Below, one piece after another: positions 943 through 53,700 of a stretch of 64,000 bases of DNA. The notes below the pieces were generated by a model, which saw nothing but the letters and a program-made list of their open reading frames with translations, did no database searches and was not told the DNA's origin. The first letter of the stretch is position 1; each line of letters begins with the position of its first letter. This stretch comes from Eledone cirrhosa (Eukaryota), in assembly GCA_964016885.1 (NCBI GenBank), contig OZ024741.1:136462001-136526000 (forward strand), in the 5' to 3' direction. The translations under genes and the position numbers were made by a program.

Positions 943-1131
943 TATCCCGGCTTCAATCGGGGGTCATCACAGTAAGTAAAGTACTCAATACATAGCAGAG
1001 TATACATTTTTAATATAGAAATGGCTTCTACAAGGACTAAAATTGTTTCATTCGACGGAAATCATCAGGGCTTTCCTGGTGATTTCCTTCGAATGAAACA
1101 GTTCTAGTCCTGTAGAAGCCATTTCTATATT
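943..1131. mobile_element. Fold-back mini-element family A, copy 1, with HHR motif in both arms
   Basis: Inverted arms ~1012-1070 / 1074-1131 plus a ~65-nt one-sided tail. Homologous to 8794-8988 and 45514-45685. The - arm has CTGATGA; the + arm has CTGGTGA...GAAACAG...CTGTA-GAAGCC. Confidence 0.8.
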
Positions 1132-1144
1132 GAATATATATGTG

Positions 1145-3242: not shown

Positions 3243-3925
3243 TCTGTTCGCTTTAACGCCTCTTGTAAAATATTATTAAATATTCTCTTTGCGCAAATAA
3301 CGCGCTATAACGCGTGTGGATTTTAATGTTTTCTTAATCACAAATATATATATATATAATTCTTCTATAGAAACTTATAGTAACAGAAACTTATATGTAC
3401 GTATGTATATAATATGTGATGTTATATTTGAGGTTGTTGTTTATACCTGAAAATGAAGGTAACGTATCAGAATAGCAAGATATTATAAATACAAATGTTT
3501 TAATGATTCTTAATACTCCTCTACTTAGGTCTTTTATCAGTTGACTCGTGTTATGTCACAAAACCGAACCATGTACCAATGGCTTATATAAGAGGTATAG
3601 TAAACTGAGCACTAGTTGCAGTAGTTTCCCTCTCTCCTACAGCACATTCTATACATTACTATAATTACTATAGAAATTTTGTTTGTCTCTTTGTTCCTAT
3701 CGTTTATTTTTTTTTATTATATTTTATTATATATATATATATATTGTAATTTTCATTAATATGGTTATATTACAGCCTACGTGTTGCCAATAAATAACAT
3801 TTATATCTCATCTGCTCAAACTCACCTGCACATATCCATATGTGCCTACTCAGAAATGCATTATAAATTCTATTGTACACAATGAAACAGTACTAGTCCT
3901 ATAGAAATCAATTTTTTTTAAATAA

Positions 3926-4040
<115 letters not shown>

Positions 4041-4200: not shown

Positions 4201-4537
4201 TAGAAAGTGAGGTTTTTTTTACAAAATGAAAATAACCGAGGTGTCCTACACGAGTGAAGGTATAAAGAAAAAGAGATGAAATCGAAAATGCAACTGGAGT
4301 CTTATTTTAAAAAAATATATATATATTTATTTGGTTCCTTTACCGGTTTCGCAGTTCTTCTGCTTTTCAAAAGGTGAGTTGAGATGGAGGGTCTGTGGTT
4401 TAAAAACCACAGACCCTCCATCTCAACTCACCTTTTGAAAAGCAGAAGAACTGCGAAACCGGTAAAGGAACCAAATAAATATATATATATTTTTTTAAAA
4501 TAAGACTCCAGTTGCATTTTCGATTTCATCTCTTTTT

Positions 4538-4544
<7 letters not shown>
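4201..4544. mobile_element. Fold-back mini-element family B, copy 1, with U3-A8 HHR in both arms
   Basis: Near-perfect palindrome 4261-4544 with apex ~4401 and a 60-nt left tail, flanked by (TA)n on both sides. HHR on + at 4431-4468 and on - at 4337-4374. Confidence 0.85.
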
Positions 4545-4591
<47 letters not shown>

Positions 4592-5393
4592 TTCAAGGGT
4601 AACCAATCTTAAAGAGAGAGATGGAGATAGTAGAGGAGATATGAGAGGAGAGATTGGTGAGTTAGTTAGAAGCCAAAGCGTAAAGGCATGTGCTCAATGT
4701 GCAATATGCAGTAGAAAGCAGCTACGTGGTTGGGTTCATGCAGAATTTAGGTGGGCAGAGCTGGAAATATTCATTAGTTAAGCAAAACAAGACCACAAAC
4801 TTCACAAGGAAGACATTATTAAAAGATTGTCAACATATTTTAGTTTGATGTAAGGAATGTAGAGAATAATAATAATAATATTAATAATAATAATGTCCGT
4901 TTACAATTGTTTCGCTGCTCCATATAATATTTCTGGATCAGATGATTATATATCATAATTGATCTGGTTCAGTTGAAAATAATTAACATATTTAAAAAAC
5001 AGAGTGGCTCATCGGAACTCAAAGGAATATAAATTAAAATAATGGGATAATGTTACATAATATAATGTTCCATATATTGGTTTTTACTATGGTGTCTTGG
5101 TTGCATCAGCTGTCATCCATAATCAAGCAGTATTCATCTGTCGAGGCTGCATTGTGTGAGATCTGCCTATGGGTAACAAGATGGCTGCCAAAGGGCATAT
5201 TTACCTTACTAATTAGAGGGTGGTTTCAGGGGAAGTAACTTCTCGAGAGATTAGAGATTGTGAGTATTTATAGTTAAGTGCTAGTTTTAAAATTTTTTTA
5301 ATTGAGAGACAATGTAGGGGAGGTAACTTATAATTATCGAGTTGTTCATAGCAATTTAACTTATTAGCTACAAGTAGAAATGGAGCTACATGA

Positions 5394-6350
5394 CTAAGTT
5401 GGGTCAAAAACTCTATTGGCGAAGGAATTAGCCCTTCGATGTTGACAGCTAATGGTTAACTCCGTTCTATCGTTAATCGGTAGAGGTCGTGATAGAGTTA
5501 TGTAATATGCTTCCGTAACACAGAGATCACAAGATTTTCTTCGTCTATTAAACGGTTGGGCCCTAGCCACGATATCCCATTTTAGTGAGTGTTGAACGTT
5601 GTTTAATTTAAGGTTTTTAATGAGCCTAGCTAGCGATGTCGAACATCTGTTGCTAGGGTCTCGGAAGGAAAACGAGTGAGCGTTATAGCGTACCTTAAAA
5701 GGGTTAGAGGTAGACCCGATATAAGAGCTGGTATTCGAAGCAGTCTCAACCGTGCACCTATAGACTATGTTGGGTGTCAGGCAGTGTCCATTTAATGGGC
5801 ATGCATTGGGGTAACGGCAGTTGCAGTTGCTTCTGCGGTTAGTGAGAGTAGGGTTGTTTAACCTAAGCAGTAGGTCCGTGCTAGAAGGATTAGAAGGGGG
5901 AGGTGTGCTACTAGAGTCATTATTGGTGTAGTGGCGTGGTGTATTTGATAGGGGTGGTGGTACCGCGGTGTGGGAGTTATACTGTCTTAGCTTATGATGG
6001 TTACTGAACGCGATGTGGCTAGCTAGGTTAGGTGTTGTGGAGAATGAGATTTTAATGTTATTTTTATTAAAGAGTTTGTAATATCTATGGTTGGGGGGGA
6101 AGTGTTTGTATAGGATAGAGAAGAAGCGTTTGGGGATATTAGTGGCTAGATTAGATGAGAATGGTGGGTTGAGCCAGGTGATATTTCTAGGTCTATTCCT
6201 TCTAGGGGTTCTAGTGGAGTTGGTAGGGGTCTTCCTATGGTTATTATTACCTGGGGATTTGTTATTTGTCATCCCATTTCTCATTCCTATTCTAGGGTTG
6301 ATTTTTAGTTTGCTACTTGGAGTGGGGAGCAGGCCGCTGCCACCATTAAA
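5394..6350 (-). CDS. PLE ORF C-terminal part: linker plus GIY-YIG endonuclease (5'-truncated)
   Basis: WLNPPFS...KHFP..H..KLFN linker, CNC..CPLNGHCL Cys motif, IVYRC...YIGST (GIY-YIG), FK.RY..H, and C-terminal CDLCVTE. Confidence 0.85.
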   Translation of the reverse strand, partial: FNGGSGLLPTPSSKLKINPRIGMRNGMTNNKSPGNNNHRKTPTNSTRTPRRNRPRNITWLNPPFSSNLATNIPKRFFSILYKHFPPNHRYYKLFNKNNIKISFSTTPNLASHIAFSNHHKLRQYNSHTAVPPPLSNTPRHYTNNDSSSTPPPSNPSSTDLLLRLNNPTLTNRRSNCNCRYPNACPLNGHCLTPNIVYRCTVETASNTSSYIGSTSNPFKVRYNAHSFSFRDPSNRCSTSLARLIKNLKLNNVQHSLKWDIVARAQPFNRRRKSCDLCVTEAYYITLSRPLPINDRTELTISCQHRRANSFANRVFDPT

Positions 6351-6355
6351 TCTCA

Positions 6356-7658
6356 ACAATTGATCTCACCAATAACCTTTATAACTCTTACCATAAACCA
6401 GGTGAAATACTCACATATATTAGCCCACACTCTAATTACCCACCGGCAGTCATCAGAGCAGTAATCAAATCTATCTCCTATAGGATCTCAATGCTATCAG
6501 CAAATGAAGAGATATGTATAAACCACGCCCAATATTATAATAAGTCTCTCTCTGAATCTGGTTATAAACAATCAATTTATTACATACCTAAATGCCATAA
6601 CACAGCAACTCACCATAATAAACTTAACACTAGAACTAGAAATACCTTAGCATATAGCCAGATTCGCCGGAATTTTAGCAGTAACAGCACCTATACAGGG
6701 AACTTTAATGGTGGCAGCGGCCTGCTCCCCAGTCCAAGTAGCAAACTAAAAATCAACCCTAGAATAGGAATGAGAAATGGGATGACAAATAACAAATCCC
6801 CAGGTAATAATAACCCTAGGAAGGCCCATACCAACTCCACTAGAACCCCTAGAAAGAATAGACCTAGAAATATCACCTGGCTCAACCCACCATTCTCATC
6901 TAATCTAGCCACTAATATCCCCAAACACTTCTTCTCTATCCTATCCAAACACTTCCCCCAACCATAGATATTACAAACTCTTTAATAAAAATAACATTAA
7001 AATCTCATTCTCCACAACACCTAACCTAGCTAGCCACATCGCGTTCAGTAACCATCATAAGCTAAGACAATATAACTCCCACACCGCGGTACCACCACCC
7101 CTATCAAATACACCACGCCACTACACCAATAATGACTCTAGTAGCACACCTCCCCCTTCTAATCCTTCTAGCACGGACCTACTGCTTAGGTTAAACAACC
7201 CTACTCTCACTAACCGCAGAAGCAACTGCAACTGCCGTTACCCCAATGCATGCCCATTAAATGGACACTGCCTGACACCCAACATAGTCTATAGGTGCAC
7301 GGTTGAGACTGCTTCGAATACCAGCTCTTATATCGGGTCTACCTCTAACCCTTTTAAGGTACGCTATAACGCGCACTCGTTTTCCTTCCGAGACCCTAGC
7401 AACAGATGTTCGACATCGCTAGCTAGGCTCATTAAAAACCTTAAATTAAACAACGTTCAACACTCACTAAAATGGGATATCGTGGCTAGGGCCCAACCGT
7501 TCAATAGACGAAGAAAATCTTATGATCTCTGTGTTACGGAAGCATATTACATAACTCTATCACGACCTCTACCGATTAACGATAGAACGGAGGTAACCAT
7601 TAGCTGTCAACATCGAAGGGCTAATTCCTTCGCCAATAGAGTTTTTGACCCAACTTAG
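6356..7658 (+). pseudogene. PLE ORF, RT thumb to GIY-YIG, with a frameshift near 6955-6960
   Basis: The frame from ~6356 reads TIDLTNNLYNSYHKP...SNYPP...RISMLSANEE...LSESGY (RT C-terminus). A poly-C run is 5 nt here versus 7 nt in the other arm, which shifts the frame. Stop at 7656-7658. Confidence 0.85.
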
Positions 7659-8033
7659 TCATGTAGCCCCATTTCTACTTGTAGCTAATAAGTTAAATTG
7701 CTATGAACAACTCGATAATTATAAGTTACCTCCCCTACATTGTCTCTCAATTAAAAAAATTTTAAAACTAGCACTTAACTATAAATACTCACAATCTCTA
7801 ATCTCTCGAGAAGTTACTTCCCCTGAAACCACCCTCTAATTAGTAAGGTAAATATGCCCTTTGGCAGCCATCTTGTTACCCATAGGCAGATCTCACACAA
7901 TGCAGCCTCGACAGATGAATACTGCTTGATTATGGCTGACAGCTGATGCAACCAAGACACCATAGTAAAAACCAATATATGGAACATTATATTATGTAAC
8001 ATTATCCCATTATTTTAATTTATATTCCTTTGA

Positions 8034-8153
8034 GTTCCGATGAGCCACTCTGTTTTTTAAATATGTTAATTATTTTCAACTGAACCAGATCAATTATGAT
8101 ATATAGTCATCTGATCCAGAAATATTATATGGAGTAGCGAAACAATTGTAAAC
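8034..8153 (+). ncRNA. HHR-like motif in the PLE 3' region (mirror copy on - at 4899-5018)
   Basis: gtt CCGATGA gccactc [81-nt loop] gagtagc GAAA caattg TA aac. Confidence 0.6.
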
Positions 8154-8493
8154 GGACATTATTATTATTAATATTATTATTATTATTCTCTACATTCCTT
8201 ACATCAAACTAAAATATGTTGACAATCTTTTAATAATGTCTTCCTTGTGAAGTTTGTGGTCTTGTTTTGCTTAACTAATGAATATATATATATATATATA
8301 TAAAGGGAGTAAGGTTCTATACAAAACAGAGGTTATAGAGAAAAAATAGAATTAGAAACATCACGAAAAATATATTTAAAGGATCTGTTTTTCTTTTGTT
8401 CTTCTTTGATCCGTCAAAGCGACCTTATTGAAAAGTTGAGAGGAACATTTTTTTTTTTTTTAAAGGAGTTTTATACTCTATGTAAAATATATA

Positions 8494-8714: not shown

Positions 8715-8793
8715 TTTATGTCTTTTCACAGAACTAAATTATTTTTAGGGAGAGGACATTTTTCTGTATATATATGTGTGTGTATCTCAATAA

Positions 8794-8988
8794 TGTTTAA
8801 TATAGAAATGGCTTCTACAGGACTAGAAATGTTTCTTTCGAAGGAAATCATCAGGTAAGCTTTCCTAATGATTTCCTTCGAATGAAACAGTGCTAGTCGT
8901 TTAGAAGCCCTGTCTATATTAAACACCGTATATACTCTATGTATTGACTTTACTTACTGTGGTTACCCCCCGATTGAACCCGGGATAC
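8794..8988. mobile_element. Fold-back family A, copy 2 (opposite orientation)
   Basis: Arms ~8794-8856 / 8863-8925 with the tail on the right, ending ...gaacccgggatac. The - arm carries CTGATGA tttc cttc gaaa GAAA. Confidence 0.8.
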
Positions 8989-15493: not shown

Positions 15494-15985
15494 ATATTGT
15501 TATACTTGGGGAGGGTCATATTTGTGTAATAATATTGCCAGAATTAATAACAGAACACACTCACTGTTTGGTTGGTTTTCGGTTCTGTGTCTTTTATATC
15601 GGTTAATTTAATTTATTCGGTCCTCAGTGTTACAGACTAAATAAACAGACTAAATAAAGATGGCGTAGGCATACAATGCAACGGGAGGAAACGTAATAGC
15701 ACGACTGACGATGTTGCAGATGTGCAACGAAAGAAGTTTGTTAGACTATATATATGTGTTTGTGTCTATATTGTATCTGTCAGTCAACGGTAACATTGAG
15801 GACCGAATAAATTAAATTAACCGATATAAAAGACACAGAAGCGAAAACCAACCAAACAGTGAGTGTGTTCTGTTATTAATTCTGGCAATATTATTACACA
15901 AATATGACCCTCCCCAAGTATAACAATATTTGTTTCGACACACGATTTTATATCAAATACCTCGCAAAACTAATTCATCGCCGTT
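15494..15985. mobile_element. Fold-back element (family D) with an HHR-like core in the spacer
   Basis: Arms 15494-15633 / 15790-15929 with a right tail, TA-flanked. The spacer has CTGACGA t gttgca gatg tgcaac GAAA at 15705-15732. Confidence 0.7.
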
Positions 15986-17415: not shown

Positions 17416-17857
17416 TTAAATATAATTGGTGTTGGATGCTTAAAGCGTCCGTATGCGGTAGGCCGTATAAGCACTCGATGCTCTCATAGAGTAGAGTATG
17501 ATATCACAGAAAAAAAGAGAATCAGTGTTGCGACGAATGGAATTTATTGGACATATTACAATCGTTTCTCTGGCGACCAGCTCGAGGCATGATCGATGTG
17601 ATGATCGAACCTGACACTCAAAATCGCAAGGTTCACAGATACGTCTTGATTCTACGAAGCAGATTTTCCTAGGAAAATCTGCCTCGTAGAATCAAGACGT
17701 GATTCTACGAATCAAGACGTGAACCTTGCGATTTTGAGAGTCAGGTTCGATATCATCACATCGATCGTGCTTCGAGCTGGTCGCCAGAGAAACGATTGTA
17801 ATATGTCCAATAAATTCTATTCGTCGCAACACTGATTCTCTTTTTTTCCTGTGATAT
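17416..17857. mobile_element. Fold-back element (family E)
   Basis: Arms 17501-17670 / 17671-17857 with apex ttcctaggaa and an ~85-nt left tail, flanked by (TA)n. Confidence 0.8.
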
Positions 17858-17880: not shown

Positions 17881-18088
17881 AAACAGAAATAACAACGCAA
17901 ATGGTACAATATATGGAAGGAATATATTAGTTTAACGCTTGAAATAGCAGGAAGAGGGTATTAACGTTTCGGACGCTAGTCCTTCATCAGAAGAAAGAAT
18001 GAGAAATTAGAAAGATTGAAGGGACGGACAGGGCGAATCAGAAAATCTTTTTTTAGAGAAAAATAACAGGTCCATTCATGTAGCCATC
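17881..18088 (-). mobile_element. PLE-like 3' fragment (family F) with HHR core at 17963-17992
   Basis: Diverged homologue of 53056-53278. The - strand reads CTGATGA a ggac tagc gtcc GAAA cgtt. Confidence 0.7.
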
Positions 18089-31608: not shown

Positions 31609-31965
<357 letters not shown>

Positions 31966-34900
31966 TATATATATATATTACAGCACAATGATGACTGAAA
32001 CCAGTAAAAGAAAAATATGTGTATGTATGGATCCTCATGTGCATGATATTTCTATTATATAAAAACATATGGTTATATAAATATTATGTGTAAAATTATA
32101 TTTATATTATGATATCAATTTTTATTTAATGTATAGTTCTTTTATTTGGTTAAATCATGTAGTGTTATATTCATTGTATGTTAGACTAAAAGATAGAAAG
32201 CAATAGAAAGACTTAAGGAAACTTGATTACTTAATCCGATCAGACAAACTCTCTCTCTATCTATCTATCTAGCTATATCTTTCTCTCTCTCTTTCTCCCT
32301 CTCTCTCTCTCCTTATTTATTTTGTCTGGGTTCCAGAGATGTTTAAATGATAAAATTGGTAGATTACCGGACTAAATGTTTCATATTATTTCATTTTATT
32401 CGTCTTTATAGTAGAATGATGAAATAAGAAATTGACCTCGGAGCTATTCGAATTCAAATTGCAAAGTATTTGTCTGACGATTCTGTCAATTGATCGACGT
32501 TTTAGTTAATATTTTTTTAAATATAAAAATAATTATATTCCAGTAGAAATATTTTACTTGTTAATTCGAATATACGGAAAATAATTGGAACTTTTCTGTT
32601 GCCATGTAGGAGGTTGTATATGAGAAATAACTAAGGGCATTACGAAATGTGAAGTATTAGTGTTAGGGTAGGGACTTGAATTCTCATCTGTTGTTATTCT
32701 GCTTGTTTGCTCTGTATGTTTTCTCCTTCATTTAGTAACAATACGCATGAATTCACACAATCAAAATCACATAAGTGTTGAATTATTGTAGTCTTTCTTC
32801 TTGTATATTAATAATCTGCTAATATTTACTTCAATCTGATAGGATTATTTCACGTTTGTGGGAAGGTGGATTGGCAGAATCGGGAAATCGTCGGACAGCA
32901 CGCTTTGCGGCGTAGAGTTACGTACCTTTACGTTCTAATTTCAAATCCCATCGAGGTAGTTTTGCTTTTGTCAATAAAATATAGCACGAGTAACACACTG
33001 GGATCGATTTAATCGATTTTACCCTTCCCCCAAACCATTATTTCAAGTTTGTATCTTTAATAGTTGAAGGCACTTGCAACTCAACCACTAAGCAAGTGGT
33101 TGAGTTACTAGTGCTCACGATCGTAAGGTCATCAGTTCGATTTCCGAAGCAAGCGGCACACTAGTTCGTTCAGCTATTGAAAATAGGTTCCAAACTCACT
33201 GGTGCCAAGTTAAATCAACCTTTGCTTTTCACTTGTACGGCTTATATAGTATATAGTGTTTATAGGGTCTTTCTCTTGGACAACAGCTTATATAATATAC
33301 TGTATATATAGTGTATATATGAACTGCTACGACATTAGTGCCAAGCTGTATCGGCAGCCACCTTTCCCTTAGACAACTTCGGTGTTATGGAGAAGGAAGA
33401 CTTGCATACATAAGTGATTGTTGATCTTCTGCACAAGCTTGTGTCTTAGAGAGGCAAACTCATGACCGGTTAATCCTGGGCACAAAATCCATGGCCGATC
33501 ATGACCGAAGGAGCCCCTTTTTTTTCTTTCATAACTCATTTGATATCAAACTGTCTGGGACCACCTCTCTTCTATGATATAAAGCTGTCTATTCTAAAAT
33601 ATTGATATATCAATGAAATACTTCCAGCATCATTATATGTAAAAAGCAAAATGTTATATTATGTCTCAGACAGTAGATTCATAAGAATTTCTAATTTAAA
33701 CACAAGGCCAGCAATTTGAAAGACGGATACACCGGCGACCCAAATCCCTCTTTCTACGTTATTTCATCGAACTCGAAACGATAAAAGACAAAGTTGACCG
33801 GATCCGGATTTAAACACAGAACGTAAAGAGCCGGAACAAGCAGTGCTGTGCATTTGTTCAACGTTCTAATGACTCTGCTAACCACCACCCTCAGAAACCA
33901 GATTTATAATGAAAATCGTTAATATTTTGCTAACCACCTCTCAATGCTGTATTATTTTCAAAAATTAATTAAAACCTAGACAGTGTTTTTCATTAGAAAT
34001 CTAGTCTCTACGGGGTTAAACAAAGACTAATATTTAAGTTAATTCTTATTTTTATGTCCATAAAAATTTATAATTGTAGCAAATATTTCCTTTGTTAAAA
34101 CATTTCTCAATAATTATTGTCTCAAGTAAACATATTTTGATTTTAATCAGAAATTTATGTCATTTATAAAATATTTTGTAACTTTTGAAATTACATGTTT
34201 TTTTTTAATCTCTTGATGAAGTGTTCTTCGTCAGTTTTGACGATGATCATTCAACTGTTTAATCAACTGAATTTCCAATTAACGGGTAAGTGGTTGAGTA
34301 TTCCACAGAGATGTGAACCTTTAATGTAATTCTCAAGCCGTATCAATGCAACACTATGTGACAAGACTGGAAACTTGAATTACAGGTATTACAGGTATAG
34401 TCCATCAGACTTAGTTTTCATTTGGTTTTTATTTACGTAACTTCACTCACAAAGCTTGGGTTGAGAGGTGAAACTAGGCTAAAAAAGCTTACGCGGGATA
34501 TCATGCAAGGGGATCAAACCTGTAAGCTCCATGGCTGCAAACAGAATTTCTTAACCACTAGTTCATATCTGTGTTCACTCTAATAATCGTAAAAGCCATA
34601 TGAATAGTCACTCTACATTAATTTAGCATCCCTGCTCACTACTGTCGCAGCGGAGCTGGCTACTCACAAGTATTTTCAGAATATTTCCTGATACGTTCGA
34701 TAATGTAATATCAGATATCCCAAACGATAGATGGTCATGGTTGGAATACCTTTGATCATATGTCTGCTGAATCAGGTCTAAGCTGGAGCTTAGCAACAGT
34801 AATAACAACATTTGTTTTAGATTTGTATTGAAAAGATGACTTTCGTGAAATATTGGATTTCAGAAATTCATAAGTTTGGTAAACCTGCTGTAATTTCCAT

Positions 34901-41806: not shown

Positions 41807-42132
41807 GTAATAATATATTTGAAGACTAAAATCAAAAGAGGGCTCGATAAGGATAAATATATATCAAATATATAAGAACCGTAGAGCAAATATTTATTAA
41901 AATAACAGATTAAAGTTTAAGCAAAGAATCGCTGCTTTCACCCTTAACGGGATCTTCTGAAACTAACAAAGTCAATCTGTAAACGCAGAAGTGCATATTT
42001 CAAAAAACATTGCAACCGTGGGAAGACAGGAAGACGATACTTTGGTTCGTGGAAACGTTTTTGTTAGTTTCAGAAGATCCCGTTAAGGGTGAAAGCAGCG
42101 ATTCTTTGCTTAAACTTTAATCTGTTATTTTA

Positions 42133-42140
<8 letters not shown>
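41803..42140. mobile_element. Fold-back element (family H) with an HHR-like motif in both arms
   Basis: Perfect arms 41890-41970 / 42060-42140 with a left tail. On + at 42066-42116: agttt CAGAAGA t ccc gttaa ggg t GAAA gcag...ttgc TT aaact. Confidence 0.8.
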
Positions 42141-42539
<399 letters not shown>

Positions 42540-45513: not shown

Positions 45514-45685
45514 TATCCTGGGTTCAATCAAGGGTAACCACAGTAAGTAAGGTACTCAATACATAGCAGAGTATAAATATTTAATATAGATATGGCTTCT
45601 ATATTTCGGAGGAAATCATCAGGAAAGCCCTGATGATTTCCTCCGAATGAAACAGCTCTAGTCCTGTAGAAGCCATTTCTATATT
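45514..45685. mobile_element. Fold-back family A, copy 3
   Basis: + arm CTGATGA tttc ctcc gaat GAAA cag ctctagtc ctg TA gaagcc (45630-45674). The left arm has an internal deletion. Confidence 0.8.
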
Positions 45686-52635: not shown

Positions 52636-52995
<360 letters not shown>

Positions 52996-53055: not shown

Positions 53056-53700
53056 AAACAGAAATAACAAAGCAAGCGACACAGTACAATGAAGAAATAT
53101 ATTATTAGTTTTACGCTTTATATAGTAAGGAAAGATTCTAAACGTTTCGGACGCTAGTCCTTCATCAGAAAATAGAAGGACAAATTAAAGAATAAATAGA
53201 AAGATTGAGTAGACGAGCAGGGCGGAAACGAAAAAAAATGTTCTTAGTGAAAAAAACAGATCCATTCATGTTGCCATCTTTGGAAAAATGTTGATGTTGG
53301 CATTTTGTGTATGATAAACTTTTTTGAAAAGGTGGTGTTCGAGCACGTTCTATACTGCTATTTATGTTTTTGATATTAAATTTATTTCTGATTGAAAATT
53401 TTAAGTATTTTTGAAGGTATAAAACCCCTGAACATTCGGTTATTGGAGCAGGATTTTAAGTGGGAACTTTTGATAGTTAATAGAACATTAGAATCATTTA
53501 AAATCCTTAGCATCTTCAGATATAGATTCTCTCTTCTGGTATTATTTATAGTGCTGATATTAAATCTGATATGTGCATCAAAATATATGTTGGCATGTAT
53601 ATCTTTGTGTGTGCCTATATATTTTGAAAAATTATACATAAATGTATGGTAATATATTTGAGAGACTTTACATGTTAATGTAAGCACTGGGTAGGGGCGT
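53056..53700 (-). mobile_element. Family F PLE-like fragment with HHR core at 53141-53170 and a possible decayed GIY-YIG upstream
   Basis: 30 nt identical to 17963-17992. ORF 53382..53687 has TCK..IYY...KYIG, a weak GIY-YIG resemblance. Confidence 0.55.

What the first reader, a model, noticed from the sequence alone, without database searches (positions are those of the whole stretch)
943..1131. Family A hairpins: all three copies fold back immediately 5' of the ribozyme core
Copies at 943-1131, 8794-8988 and 45514-45685 have apices atcatcagg-gcttt-cctggtgat, atcatcagg-taagcttt-cctaatgat and atcatcagg-aaagc-cctgatgat. All lie within ~10 nt of CTGATGA, at the 5' strand of stem I (ggctttc pairing with gaagcc, one bulge). 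Random 5' truncation would not recur at one spot. This suggests a defined ~130-nt RNA that begins with the HHR and is copied by self-primed fold-back, or a hairpin master element. No single copy is fully intact; the fold comes from the consensus.
Basis: partly seen in the sequence, partly recalled or inferred. Interest (0 to 1): 0.75.

Follow-up and report, generated by a model that had tools for sequence, protein, structure and literature searches.

The report
Twin-primed stubs of Hydra-clade Penelope element
The three hairpins are short head-to-head stubs of the end of a very common Penelope-like jumping gene, likely made when two separately started DNA copies of its RNA both ran to the RNA's predicted start and were joined, so they are old debris of a known kind that records how these elements likely insert.

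Summary
The hairpins and apices are real. They are the pLTR/hammerhead end of a Hydra-clade Penelope-like element (PLE): the same sequence flanks an RT plus GIY-YIG ORF elsewhere in G000. In 57 of 63 sampled hairpins the innermost reach lies 1-9 nt before CTGATGA (29 at -7), 30 nt behind a TATA box, so -7 is probably the mRNA start. The tail runs on into the ORF, so no separate 130-nt RNA is needed. 58 of 63 hairpins pair one long with one short arm. The loop sits on either arm equally (28:26), some arms do not overlap, and arms share their subfamily but no excess of later mutations. This argues against one hairpin master and against simple fold-back, and fits two cDNAs primed from both cut target strands at two internal start sites. 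Head-to-head pLTRs with a one-sided tail are published, explained there by self-priming. My searches found no paper proposing twin priming for PLEs, but this scan reached that reading before on other DNA, including this genome. No RNA start or cleavage was shown.

The parts
943..1069 (-). Copy 1 long arm: hammerhead core to the end of the tail (-1 to about +125 relative to the C of CTGATGA), ending in a (CA)/(TA) tract
1069..1135 (+). Copy 1 short arm (-7 to about +59); carries the loop and stem I 5' strand; core substitution at 1079; predicted cut after 1114; runs into (TA)/(TG)
1061..1083 (.). Copy 1 apex, the commonest form in the genome (three G, 5-nt loop), loop on the short arm
8790..8860 (-). 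Copy 2 short arm (-6 to about +65)
8859..8988 (+). Copy 2 long arm (-6 to about +125); core substitution at 8867; ends in (CA)n
8847..8872 (.). Copy 2 apex, a near-perfect palindrome centred on AAGCTT; both arms reach -6
45514..45629 (-). Copy 3 long arm (-7 to about +125); carries the loop; 16-nt deletion removes stem III
45629..45685 (+). Copy 3 short arm (-1 to about +55); intact core, stem II and stem III but no stem I 5' strand; runs into (TA)n
45615..45637 (.). Copy 3 apex, reverse complement of the copy 1 apex, loop on the long arm; both arms share the +13 loop II variant
3881..3941 (+). Fourth, decayed solo fragment of the family (stem III to the short end), not in the finding

Best explanation
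The hairpins are the shortest insertions of a Hydra-clade Penelope-like retrotransposon, likely formed when both cut strands of a (TA)n target each prime a cDNA on the element's mRNA, one at about +55-60 and one at about +127, and the two cDNAs run to the predicted capped start at -7 and are joined head to head. Shown: the link of this sequence to an RT-EN ORF, the long-plus-short arm rule, the hot spot at -7, loops on either arm, and a shared source subfamily. Inferred: the CCAAT/CCAAT/TATA region of the pLTR starts transcription at -7; the two initiation sites lie in the 5' UTR, so priming there leaves only about 65 and 135 nt to copy; the join uses the terminal CC/GG microhomology, often with one extra G that may be the copied cap. 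The hammerhead marks the apex only because its stem I begins at the RNA start. Its predicted cut site (+38) is not the apex.
For: ORF link: of 30 loci found with the endonuclease end, 6 have family A downstream on the same strand and 4 have it inverted upstream. L372 reads inverted short pLTR, truncated ORF, 3' pLTR with tail; L378 reads pLTR, tail, ORF. Five copies show the tail running into 5' UTR and ORF. Hot spot: 57 of 63 hairpins and 18 of 27 other loci reach -1 to -9 (90 of 681 exact-core matches). An independent DNA run shows loose ends at -7, -3 and +50 to +55. TATA starts at -37 and CCAAT at -89 and -70. Arms: 58 of 63 are long plus short; the long arm reaches further in 28, the short in 22, tie in 8. 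With the apex held fixed, the loop is on long vs short arm 16:14 and 12:12. L207 has a long arm of +64 to +127 and a short arm of about -480 to +54, with no overlap; L186 overlaps by 20 nt. Arms share subfamily class in 21 of 31 pairs (null 7.8 +/- 2.3) but private changes are not shared beyond chance (7 in 1779 columns; arm-to-arm difference 11.2%, equal to shuffled pairs), so loops were not flipped with lasting gene conversion. Extra G: three-G apex 213 vs two-G apex 53; 8 of 14 hand-picked junctions outside a CAG context have three G. In vitro, a Poseidon PLE cuts and extends both strands and starts at two internal sites that bound the tail (PMC11167929).
Against: No RNA evidence for the start: the two RNA runs are contigs holding one hairpin at depth 2.4. 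In ORF-bearing copies the inverted 5' arm is the short type in 7 of 8, an asymmetry that fold-back of a long first cDNA also predicts. A loop inversion at or soon after insertion would equalise symmetric apices without leaving shared mutations. Palindromes delete easily, so some truncated arms may be later deletions. The core pattern starts at -1, so copies cut inside the core were excluded, and about 9 loci occur in both the core and the apex sets. The three-G apex also fits a 1-nt microhomology without any cap copy. Short ends spread from +48 to +74 because of TA microhomology, and no TSD signal exceeded shuffled pairs (8.9 vs 8.65 +/- 0.41 nt). The Poseidon work reports initiation without homology to the target, whereas both sites here are TA/CA-rich like the target.
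Confidence: 0.7

Rival explanations
1. One cDNA, primed at the tail end, reaches the RNA start, folds back on its terminal CC/GG, and copies itself as far as the TA-rich site, which anneals to the other target end; loops are later inverted between the arms.
For: The commonest apex is a neat 2-bp stem with a 4-5-nt loop; arms share subfamily; 7 of 8 inverted arms on ORF-bearing copies are short; self-priming is the published reading (PMC3846280).
Against: It predicts the loop always on the long arm; observed 28:26. In 11 strongly asymmetric cases the short arm reaches further, against 4 the other way. L207 arms do not overlap. There is no sign of exchange between arms.
Confidence: 0.15
2. Twin priming is right, but -7 is not a transcription start; it is another RNA boundary, such as a splice acceptor next to helix I or a processing site.
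For: A CAG lies at -12 to -10, and in D. virilis Penelope an intron ends at the 5' end of helix I (PMC4209133). The D. virilis promoter is internal and TATA-less (PMC2377424).
Against: No shared upstream exon is joined at -9 in the 90 loci, ends pile at -7 rather than -9, there is no pyrimidine tract, and TATA and CCAAT sit at standard spacing (standard spacing recalled).
Confidence: 0.09
3. Self-priming on an antisense RNA that ends near the hammerhead.
For: Proposed for head-to-head PLE palindromes in Adineta (PMC3846280).
Against: Nothing here defines an antisense 3' end at -7, whereas a sense TATA box does. It does not explain non-overlapping arms or loops on either arm.
Confidence: 0.04
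4. A hairpin master element or MITE that spreads as a unit.
For: One exact apex occurs 213 times.
Against: That apex has the long arm on either side of the loop, occurs across subfamilies, and grades into solo arms, long spacers and ORF-bearing copies. The outer ends are not TIRs and no TSD signal was found.
Confidence: 0.02

Closest known systems
Hydra clade of C-terminal EN+ Penelope-like elements (Craig et al. 2021, PMC8557442; e.g. Hydra-1_Obim, Penelope-13_HM)
   Same: RWR (RWK-like) motif, DKT, YRDD, CxCX5C linker, C-terminal GIY-YIG with CxxC and CxH, about 3 kb, (TA)n targets, hammerhead with ctgatgat...tgaa core as in File S2, inverted 5'-truncated copy.
   Different: Five short family-specific terms were not found in the supplement, and the Hydra-1_Obim hammerhead differs. 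Stem II is 3 bp and loop III 8 nt here, against mostly 4+ bp and 1-3 nt in File S2. The tail is about 65 nt rather than 30-40. Most sampled copies are stubs of under 200 bp.
Inverted pLTR with one-sided tail in EN+ PLEs (PMC3846280; PMC8557442 Fig. 2; opposite-strand hammerhead pairs in PMC4209133)
   Same: Head-to-head palindrome at the inverted junction, tail on one arm, TATA plus initiator-like motif in the pLTR.
   Different: Published reading is self-priming. Here loop orientation and non-overlapping arms favour two primings, and the junction has a sharp hot spot at the predicted start.
Poseidon_Ac in vitro reaction (PMC11167929)
   Same: Both target strands cut and extended; two internal RT starts that bound the tail; hammerhead cleavage not needed; 5' truncation of the RNA shortens the product.
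   Different: Other clade; starts lie inside the ORF and are described as non-homologous to the target; joining of two cDNAs was not reported in the parts read.
L1 twin priming (recalled, not read here)
   Same: A second target strand primes internally and yields a 5' inversion joined by microhomology.
   Different: In L1 the two pieces do not overlap. Here most arms copy the same 60 nt twice, which needs strand displacement, sequential use of one RNA, or two RNAs from one source.
Animal non-LTR retrozymes (bioRxiv 10.64898/2026.07.22.740005)
   Same: Type I hammerhead, PLE pLTR origin, non-coding copies.
   Different: Retrozymes are head-to-tail tandem arrays; these are head-to-head, promoterless and not propagated as units.

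Membership tests
EN+ Penelope-like element | Single ORF with RT and C-terminal GIY-YIG endonuclease linked to the repeat | tested here: met
   L265, L263, L372 carry RT (YRDD), EN and family A on one strand. Pfam GIY-YIG hit is weak, E 0.006, below cut-off. All ORFs seen are broken.
EN+ Penelope-like element | pLTR at both ends or partial tandem, with tail continuing into the 5' region | tested here: met
   L310/L378, L290, L301, L307, L308. No single copy with both complete pLTRs and a whole ORF was seen.
EN+ Penelope-like element | Inverted 5'-truncated copy with the tail on one side | tested here: met
   58 of 63 hairpins; L372
EN+ Penelope-like element | Target-site duplication | tested here: inconclusive
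   No excess over shuffled flanks in 56 hairpins; microsatellite targets hide it
Hydra clade | RWK motif, DKT for DKG, CxCX5C linker, CxxC and CxH around the EN end | tested here: met
   RIRWR in 4 and DKT in 4 of 5 copies scanned, CxCX5C in L303, L307 and L269, CCDLC and CPNCxH; RWK is RWR here
Hydra clade | (TA)n insertion preference and length under about 3 kb | tested here: met
   Flanks; predicted start to 3' end about 3 kb in L372-type copies
Hydra clade | Placement in an RT phylogeny | not tested
   No tree was built; likeness to the Hydra-1_Obim protein was judged by eye
Type I hammerhead ribozyme | CUGANGA, GAAA, UH core with stems I-III | tested here: met
   Present in the majority letters of 157 arms. 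Loop II varies 24.8% against 5-9% in stems, core and loop III; a CpG at +14/+15 inflates this, but +11 and +13 alone vary in 90 of 312. Energy folding gives no excess over shuffles.
Type I hammerhead ribozyme | G10.1-C11.1 pair closing stem II | tested here: not met
   T...T flanks a 3-bp stem starting with T; the T...T frame is common in Hydra hammerheads of File S2
Type I hammerhead ribozyme | Self-cleavage | not testable with these tools
   Needs an in vitro assay
MITE / DNA transposon | Terminal inverted repeats with fixed outer ends and TSD | tested here: not met
   Outer ends differ (short vs long site); no TSD signal
Non-LTR retrozyme | Head-to-tail tandem monomers each with a hammerhead | tested here: not met
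   No tandem array at the three copies; the sampled loci are head-to-head or solo

The most novel reading that the evidence does not exclude
PLE integration is symmetric double target-primed reverse transcription: a dimeric RT-EN cuts both strands, each subunit starts at its own hairpin-marked site on one capped mRNA, both run to the cap, and the cap-derived extra C seals the head-to-head join. This would explain the inverted pLTR and the one-sided tail of the whole class, and make the stubs a genomic map of PLE transcription starts.
Probability: 0.35. Interest if true: 0.65.

Novelty: new member of a known kind. Interest (0 to 1): 0.4.

Why it matters
How PLEs, the sister group of telomerase, make their inverted ends and one-sided tail is an open question named in PMC8557442 and PMC11167929. 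A family with thousands of candidate copies gives countable predictions: loop on either arm, two fixed priming sites, run-off at a TATA-defined start with an extra G. These can be checked by 5' end mapping and in the existing in vitro system. The three window copies themselves are old, promoterless and probably inert.

Tried and rejected
Rfam scans of the window (150 of 250 rows shown) and of copy 3 (15 rows) showed no hammerhead family. The repeat finder was swamped by microsatellites. Walking upstream from L067 led to an unrelated LINE-like 3' end. Sequence after the long ends of stub copies gave no shared continuation. I first called the clade Neptune and corrected it to Hydra. A gapped test of subfamily sharing at +59 to +68 was negative (11 shared, below null), probably because short arms run into TA tracts; the ungapped class test that replaced it was positive and used only the 31 pairs with a readable site in both arms. 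TSD test negative. Energy folding of six stretches gave z between -0.74 and +0.93. RNA runs X1 and X2 were small-share contig sets and say nothing on start or expression. The sigma-70 scan is not suited to this promoter and found nothing. Pfam did not recognise the RT pieces. PMC4209129 was opened by a wrong id and is unrelated. Look-ups of earlier findings near this place and by sequence were empty.

Full report
Positions are given relative to the C of CTGATGA (0); -7 is the first G of GGCTTTC.

Observation. The three apices are present as described. Each copy has one long arm, ending at about +125 in a (CA)/(TA) tract, and one short arm, ending at about +55 to +65 in (TA)n. No arm is a complete hammerhead on its own strand. 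The apices of copies 1 and 3 are reverse complements: the same junction, with the loop on the short arm in copy 1 and on the long arm in copy 3. A decayed fourth fragment lies at 3881-3941. Rfam listed no hammerhead among the rows shown.

Copy number and census. G000 is a 3.0-Gb genome. The long arm gave 4066 first-look candidates and a 33-nt core pattern 681 exact matches. I examined 90 of these, from contigs C1 and C2: 63 hairpins and 27 others. The innermost reach was -1 to -9 in 57 of 63 hairpins (29 at -7), -11 or -13 in 2, and -50 to -131 in 4. Among the others, 18 of 27 end at -1 to -7, 1 at -15 and 8 beyond -90. The pattern begins at -1, so junctions inside the core were excluded. DNA run X3 (13,620 contigs laid) independently shows loose ends at -7, -3 and +50 to +55.

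What lies upstream. Longer copies continue for at least 460 nt (candidates: 1233 for the proximal part; 119 for the distal part). They carry CCAAT at -89 and -70 and TATAAAT starting at -37, 30 nt before -7. That spacing is standard for a polymerase II start (recalled). The commonest exact apex has three G where the template has two (213 vs 53). In junctions not preceded by CAG, 8 of 14 hand-picked cases have three G. RT copying of the cap as an extra G is discussed in PMC4038843. A 1-nt microhomology gives the same three-G apex, so this is only suggestive.

The parent element. ORF fragments next to family A led to a query from the endonuclease end (1222 candidates). Of 30 loci, 6 have family A downstream on the same strand, 4 have it inverted upstream and 2 inverted downstream. 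L232 reads endonuclease end, 3' UTR, degenerate TG/TA tract, promoter, hammerhead, tail. Walking 5' gave five copies in which the tail runs into a 5' UTR and the ORF, with ATGs at +175 and +205 in L310. L372 has the textbook PLE layout: inverted short pLTR, 5'-truncated ORF, 3' pLTR with tail. The protein has RWR, DKT, YRDD, CxCX5C, YIG, CxxC and CxH, the marks of the Hydra clade (PMC8557442 section 11). Hydra hammerheads in File S2 often share the ctgatgat...tgaa frame. So the RNA that starts at -7 is most simply the element's mRNA, and both arm ends lie in its 5' UTR.

Hammerhead. In 157 arms from loci selected on promoter, ORF, upstream or apex sequence, loop II varies 24.8% against 5-9% for stems, core and loop III; the CpG-free loop positions alone vary in 90 of 312. 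This suggests that source elements kept the fold. Stem II is only 3 bp without the G-C closing pair, energy folding is unremarkable, and cleavage is untested. The predicted cut at +38 is not where the apices lie.

Mechanism. One long plus one short arm occurs in 58 of 63 hairpins (3 short-short, 2 long-long). Fold-back of one cDNA predicts that the long arm always carries the loop. Observed: long further 28, short further 22, tie 8. With the apex fixed, the loop is on long vs short arm 16:14 for the three-G form (30 of 213 examined) and 12:12 for the two-G form (30 of 53 examined, 6 scored short-short). About 9 loci are common to the core and apex sets. Among strongly asymmetric junctions the short arm reaches further in 11 and the long in 4. 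L207 joins a long arm of +64 to +127 to a short arm of about -480 to +54 with no overlap, and L186 overlaps by 20 nt. The arms come from one source: same subfamily class in 21 of 31 readable pairs, null 7.8 +/- 2.3. They were not homogenised later: 7 shared changes in 1779 columns (null rate 0.0030, p 0.28) and arm-to-arm difference 11.2%, the same as shuffled pairs, in 70 pairs. Two cDNAs primed from the two target strands explain all of this and match the Poseidon biochemistry (both strands cut and extended, two internal starts bounding the tail, cleavage dispensable; PMC11167929).

Results against. The inverted arm on ORF-bearing copies is short in 7 of 8, so the reaction may be ordered rather than symmetric. 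Early loop inversion or later deletion could mimic part of the pattern. No TSD signal was found. A gapped subfamily test was negative. RNA data were uninformative.

A lead from earlier scan notes. They report paired bulged hairpins just beyond the two ends in Hydra elements. In family A a stem ACTC...GAGT with an inner hairpin begins near +66. Among 119 arms the common variants keep the inner pairing (31 with a G-U pair, 30 with A-U, 16 shortened). A second 4-bp stem lies about 14 nt beyond the long end in three or four of five 5' UTRs (by eye). I count this as partly tested.

Comparison and novelty. Head-to-head pLTR palindromes with a one-sided tail are described (PMC3846280; PMC8557442), as are opposite-strand hammerhead pairs from truncated PLEs (PMC4209133). 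The published explanation is self-priming. Searches for PLE with twin priming, with head-to-head or self-priming, with palindrome and transcription start, and for mechanism papers since 2023 (listings only) showed no paper proposing twin priming or start-site run-off for PLEs; the library lacks most subscription papers. This scan has reached the twin-priming reading before in this and other genomes; those notes were read after my reading was recorded and are not independent support. The host looks like an octopus from recalled repeat likeness and earlier notes; no call established it.

What I saw of each paper. PMC11167929: parts 1-2 of 4 (main text, start of methods). PMC8557442: passages, section 11, supplement part 2 of 59 and search hits. 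PMC4209133: parts 1-2 of 4. bioRxiv 10.64898/2026.07.22.740005: part 1 of 5. PMC3846280, PMC2377424, PMC4038843, PMC6962438: passages. L1 twin priming and promoter spacing: recalled.

Verdict. Real feature; new family of a known kind; first reading partly right. Twin priming with run-off at the mRNA start, confidence 0.7. Interest 0.4.

Noticed in passing
window 4767-8285: 5'-truncated PLE of another family with a 99%-identical inverted arm; RT-thumb and GIY-YIG frames at 6350-7658 with a CxCX5C linker (Hydra type). Young, so a good test case for junction rules.
   Followed up: partly
window 4261-4544, 31677-31978, 52792-52892: Hairpins of a second (TA)n-inserted family with apices at different depths; 4261-4544 is 99% self-complementary.
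   Followed up: no
window 42240-42422: Hairpin of a third family with CTGAGGA cores on both arms, the same T...T frame around a 2-bp stem II, a palindromic loop III and a spacer of about 30 nt.
   Followed up: partly
window about 17940-17995 and 53120-53170 (minus): Two solo copies of a minimal hammerhead with an extra A and a 4-bp G-C stem II.
   Followed up: no
window 17501-17857, 15494-15929, 41890-42140, 2594-2811: Further inverted repeats not examined.
   Followed up: no
L232:1500-2500, L063, L197: The 3' UTR of the parent element holds a degenerate TG/TA microsatellite and, in some subfamilies, a duplication of about 130 nt before the promoter.
   Followed up: partly
L367/L368 (G000:C5:100843787-100843950): Two exact apices 140 nt apart in opposite orientation: a double hairpin.
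   Followed up: no
L211, L212: Long family A copies facing away from each other 6-8 kb apart with other elements between them.
   Followed up: partly
L269:1309-3570: Another Hydra-type family with long open frames (RWK, DKT, CxCX5C), more intact than family A's parent.
   Followed up: no
L097; runs X1, X2: The one contig laid from each RNA library is a family A hairpin whose flank matches L097, at depth 2.4; it may be DNA or intronic RNA.
   Followed up: no
window 8775-8795: The outer end of copy 2's short arm is followed by a stretch resembling the long end, so it may be a long arm with an internal deletion.
   Followed up: no
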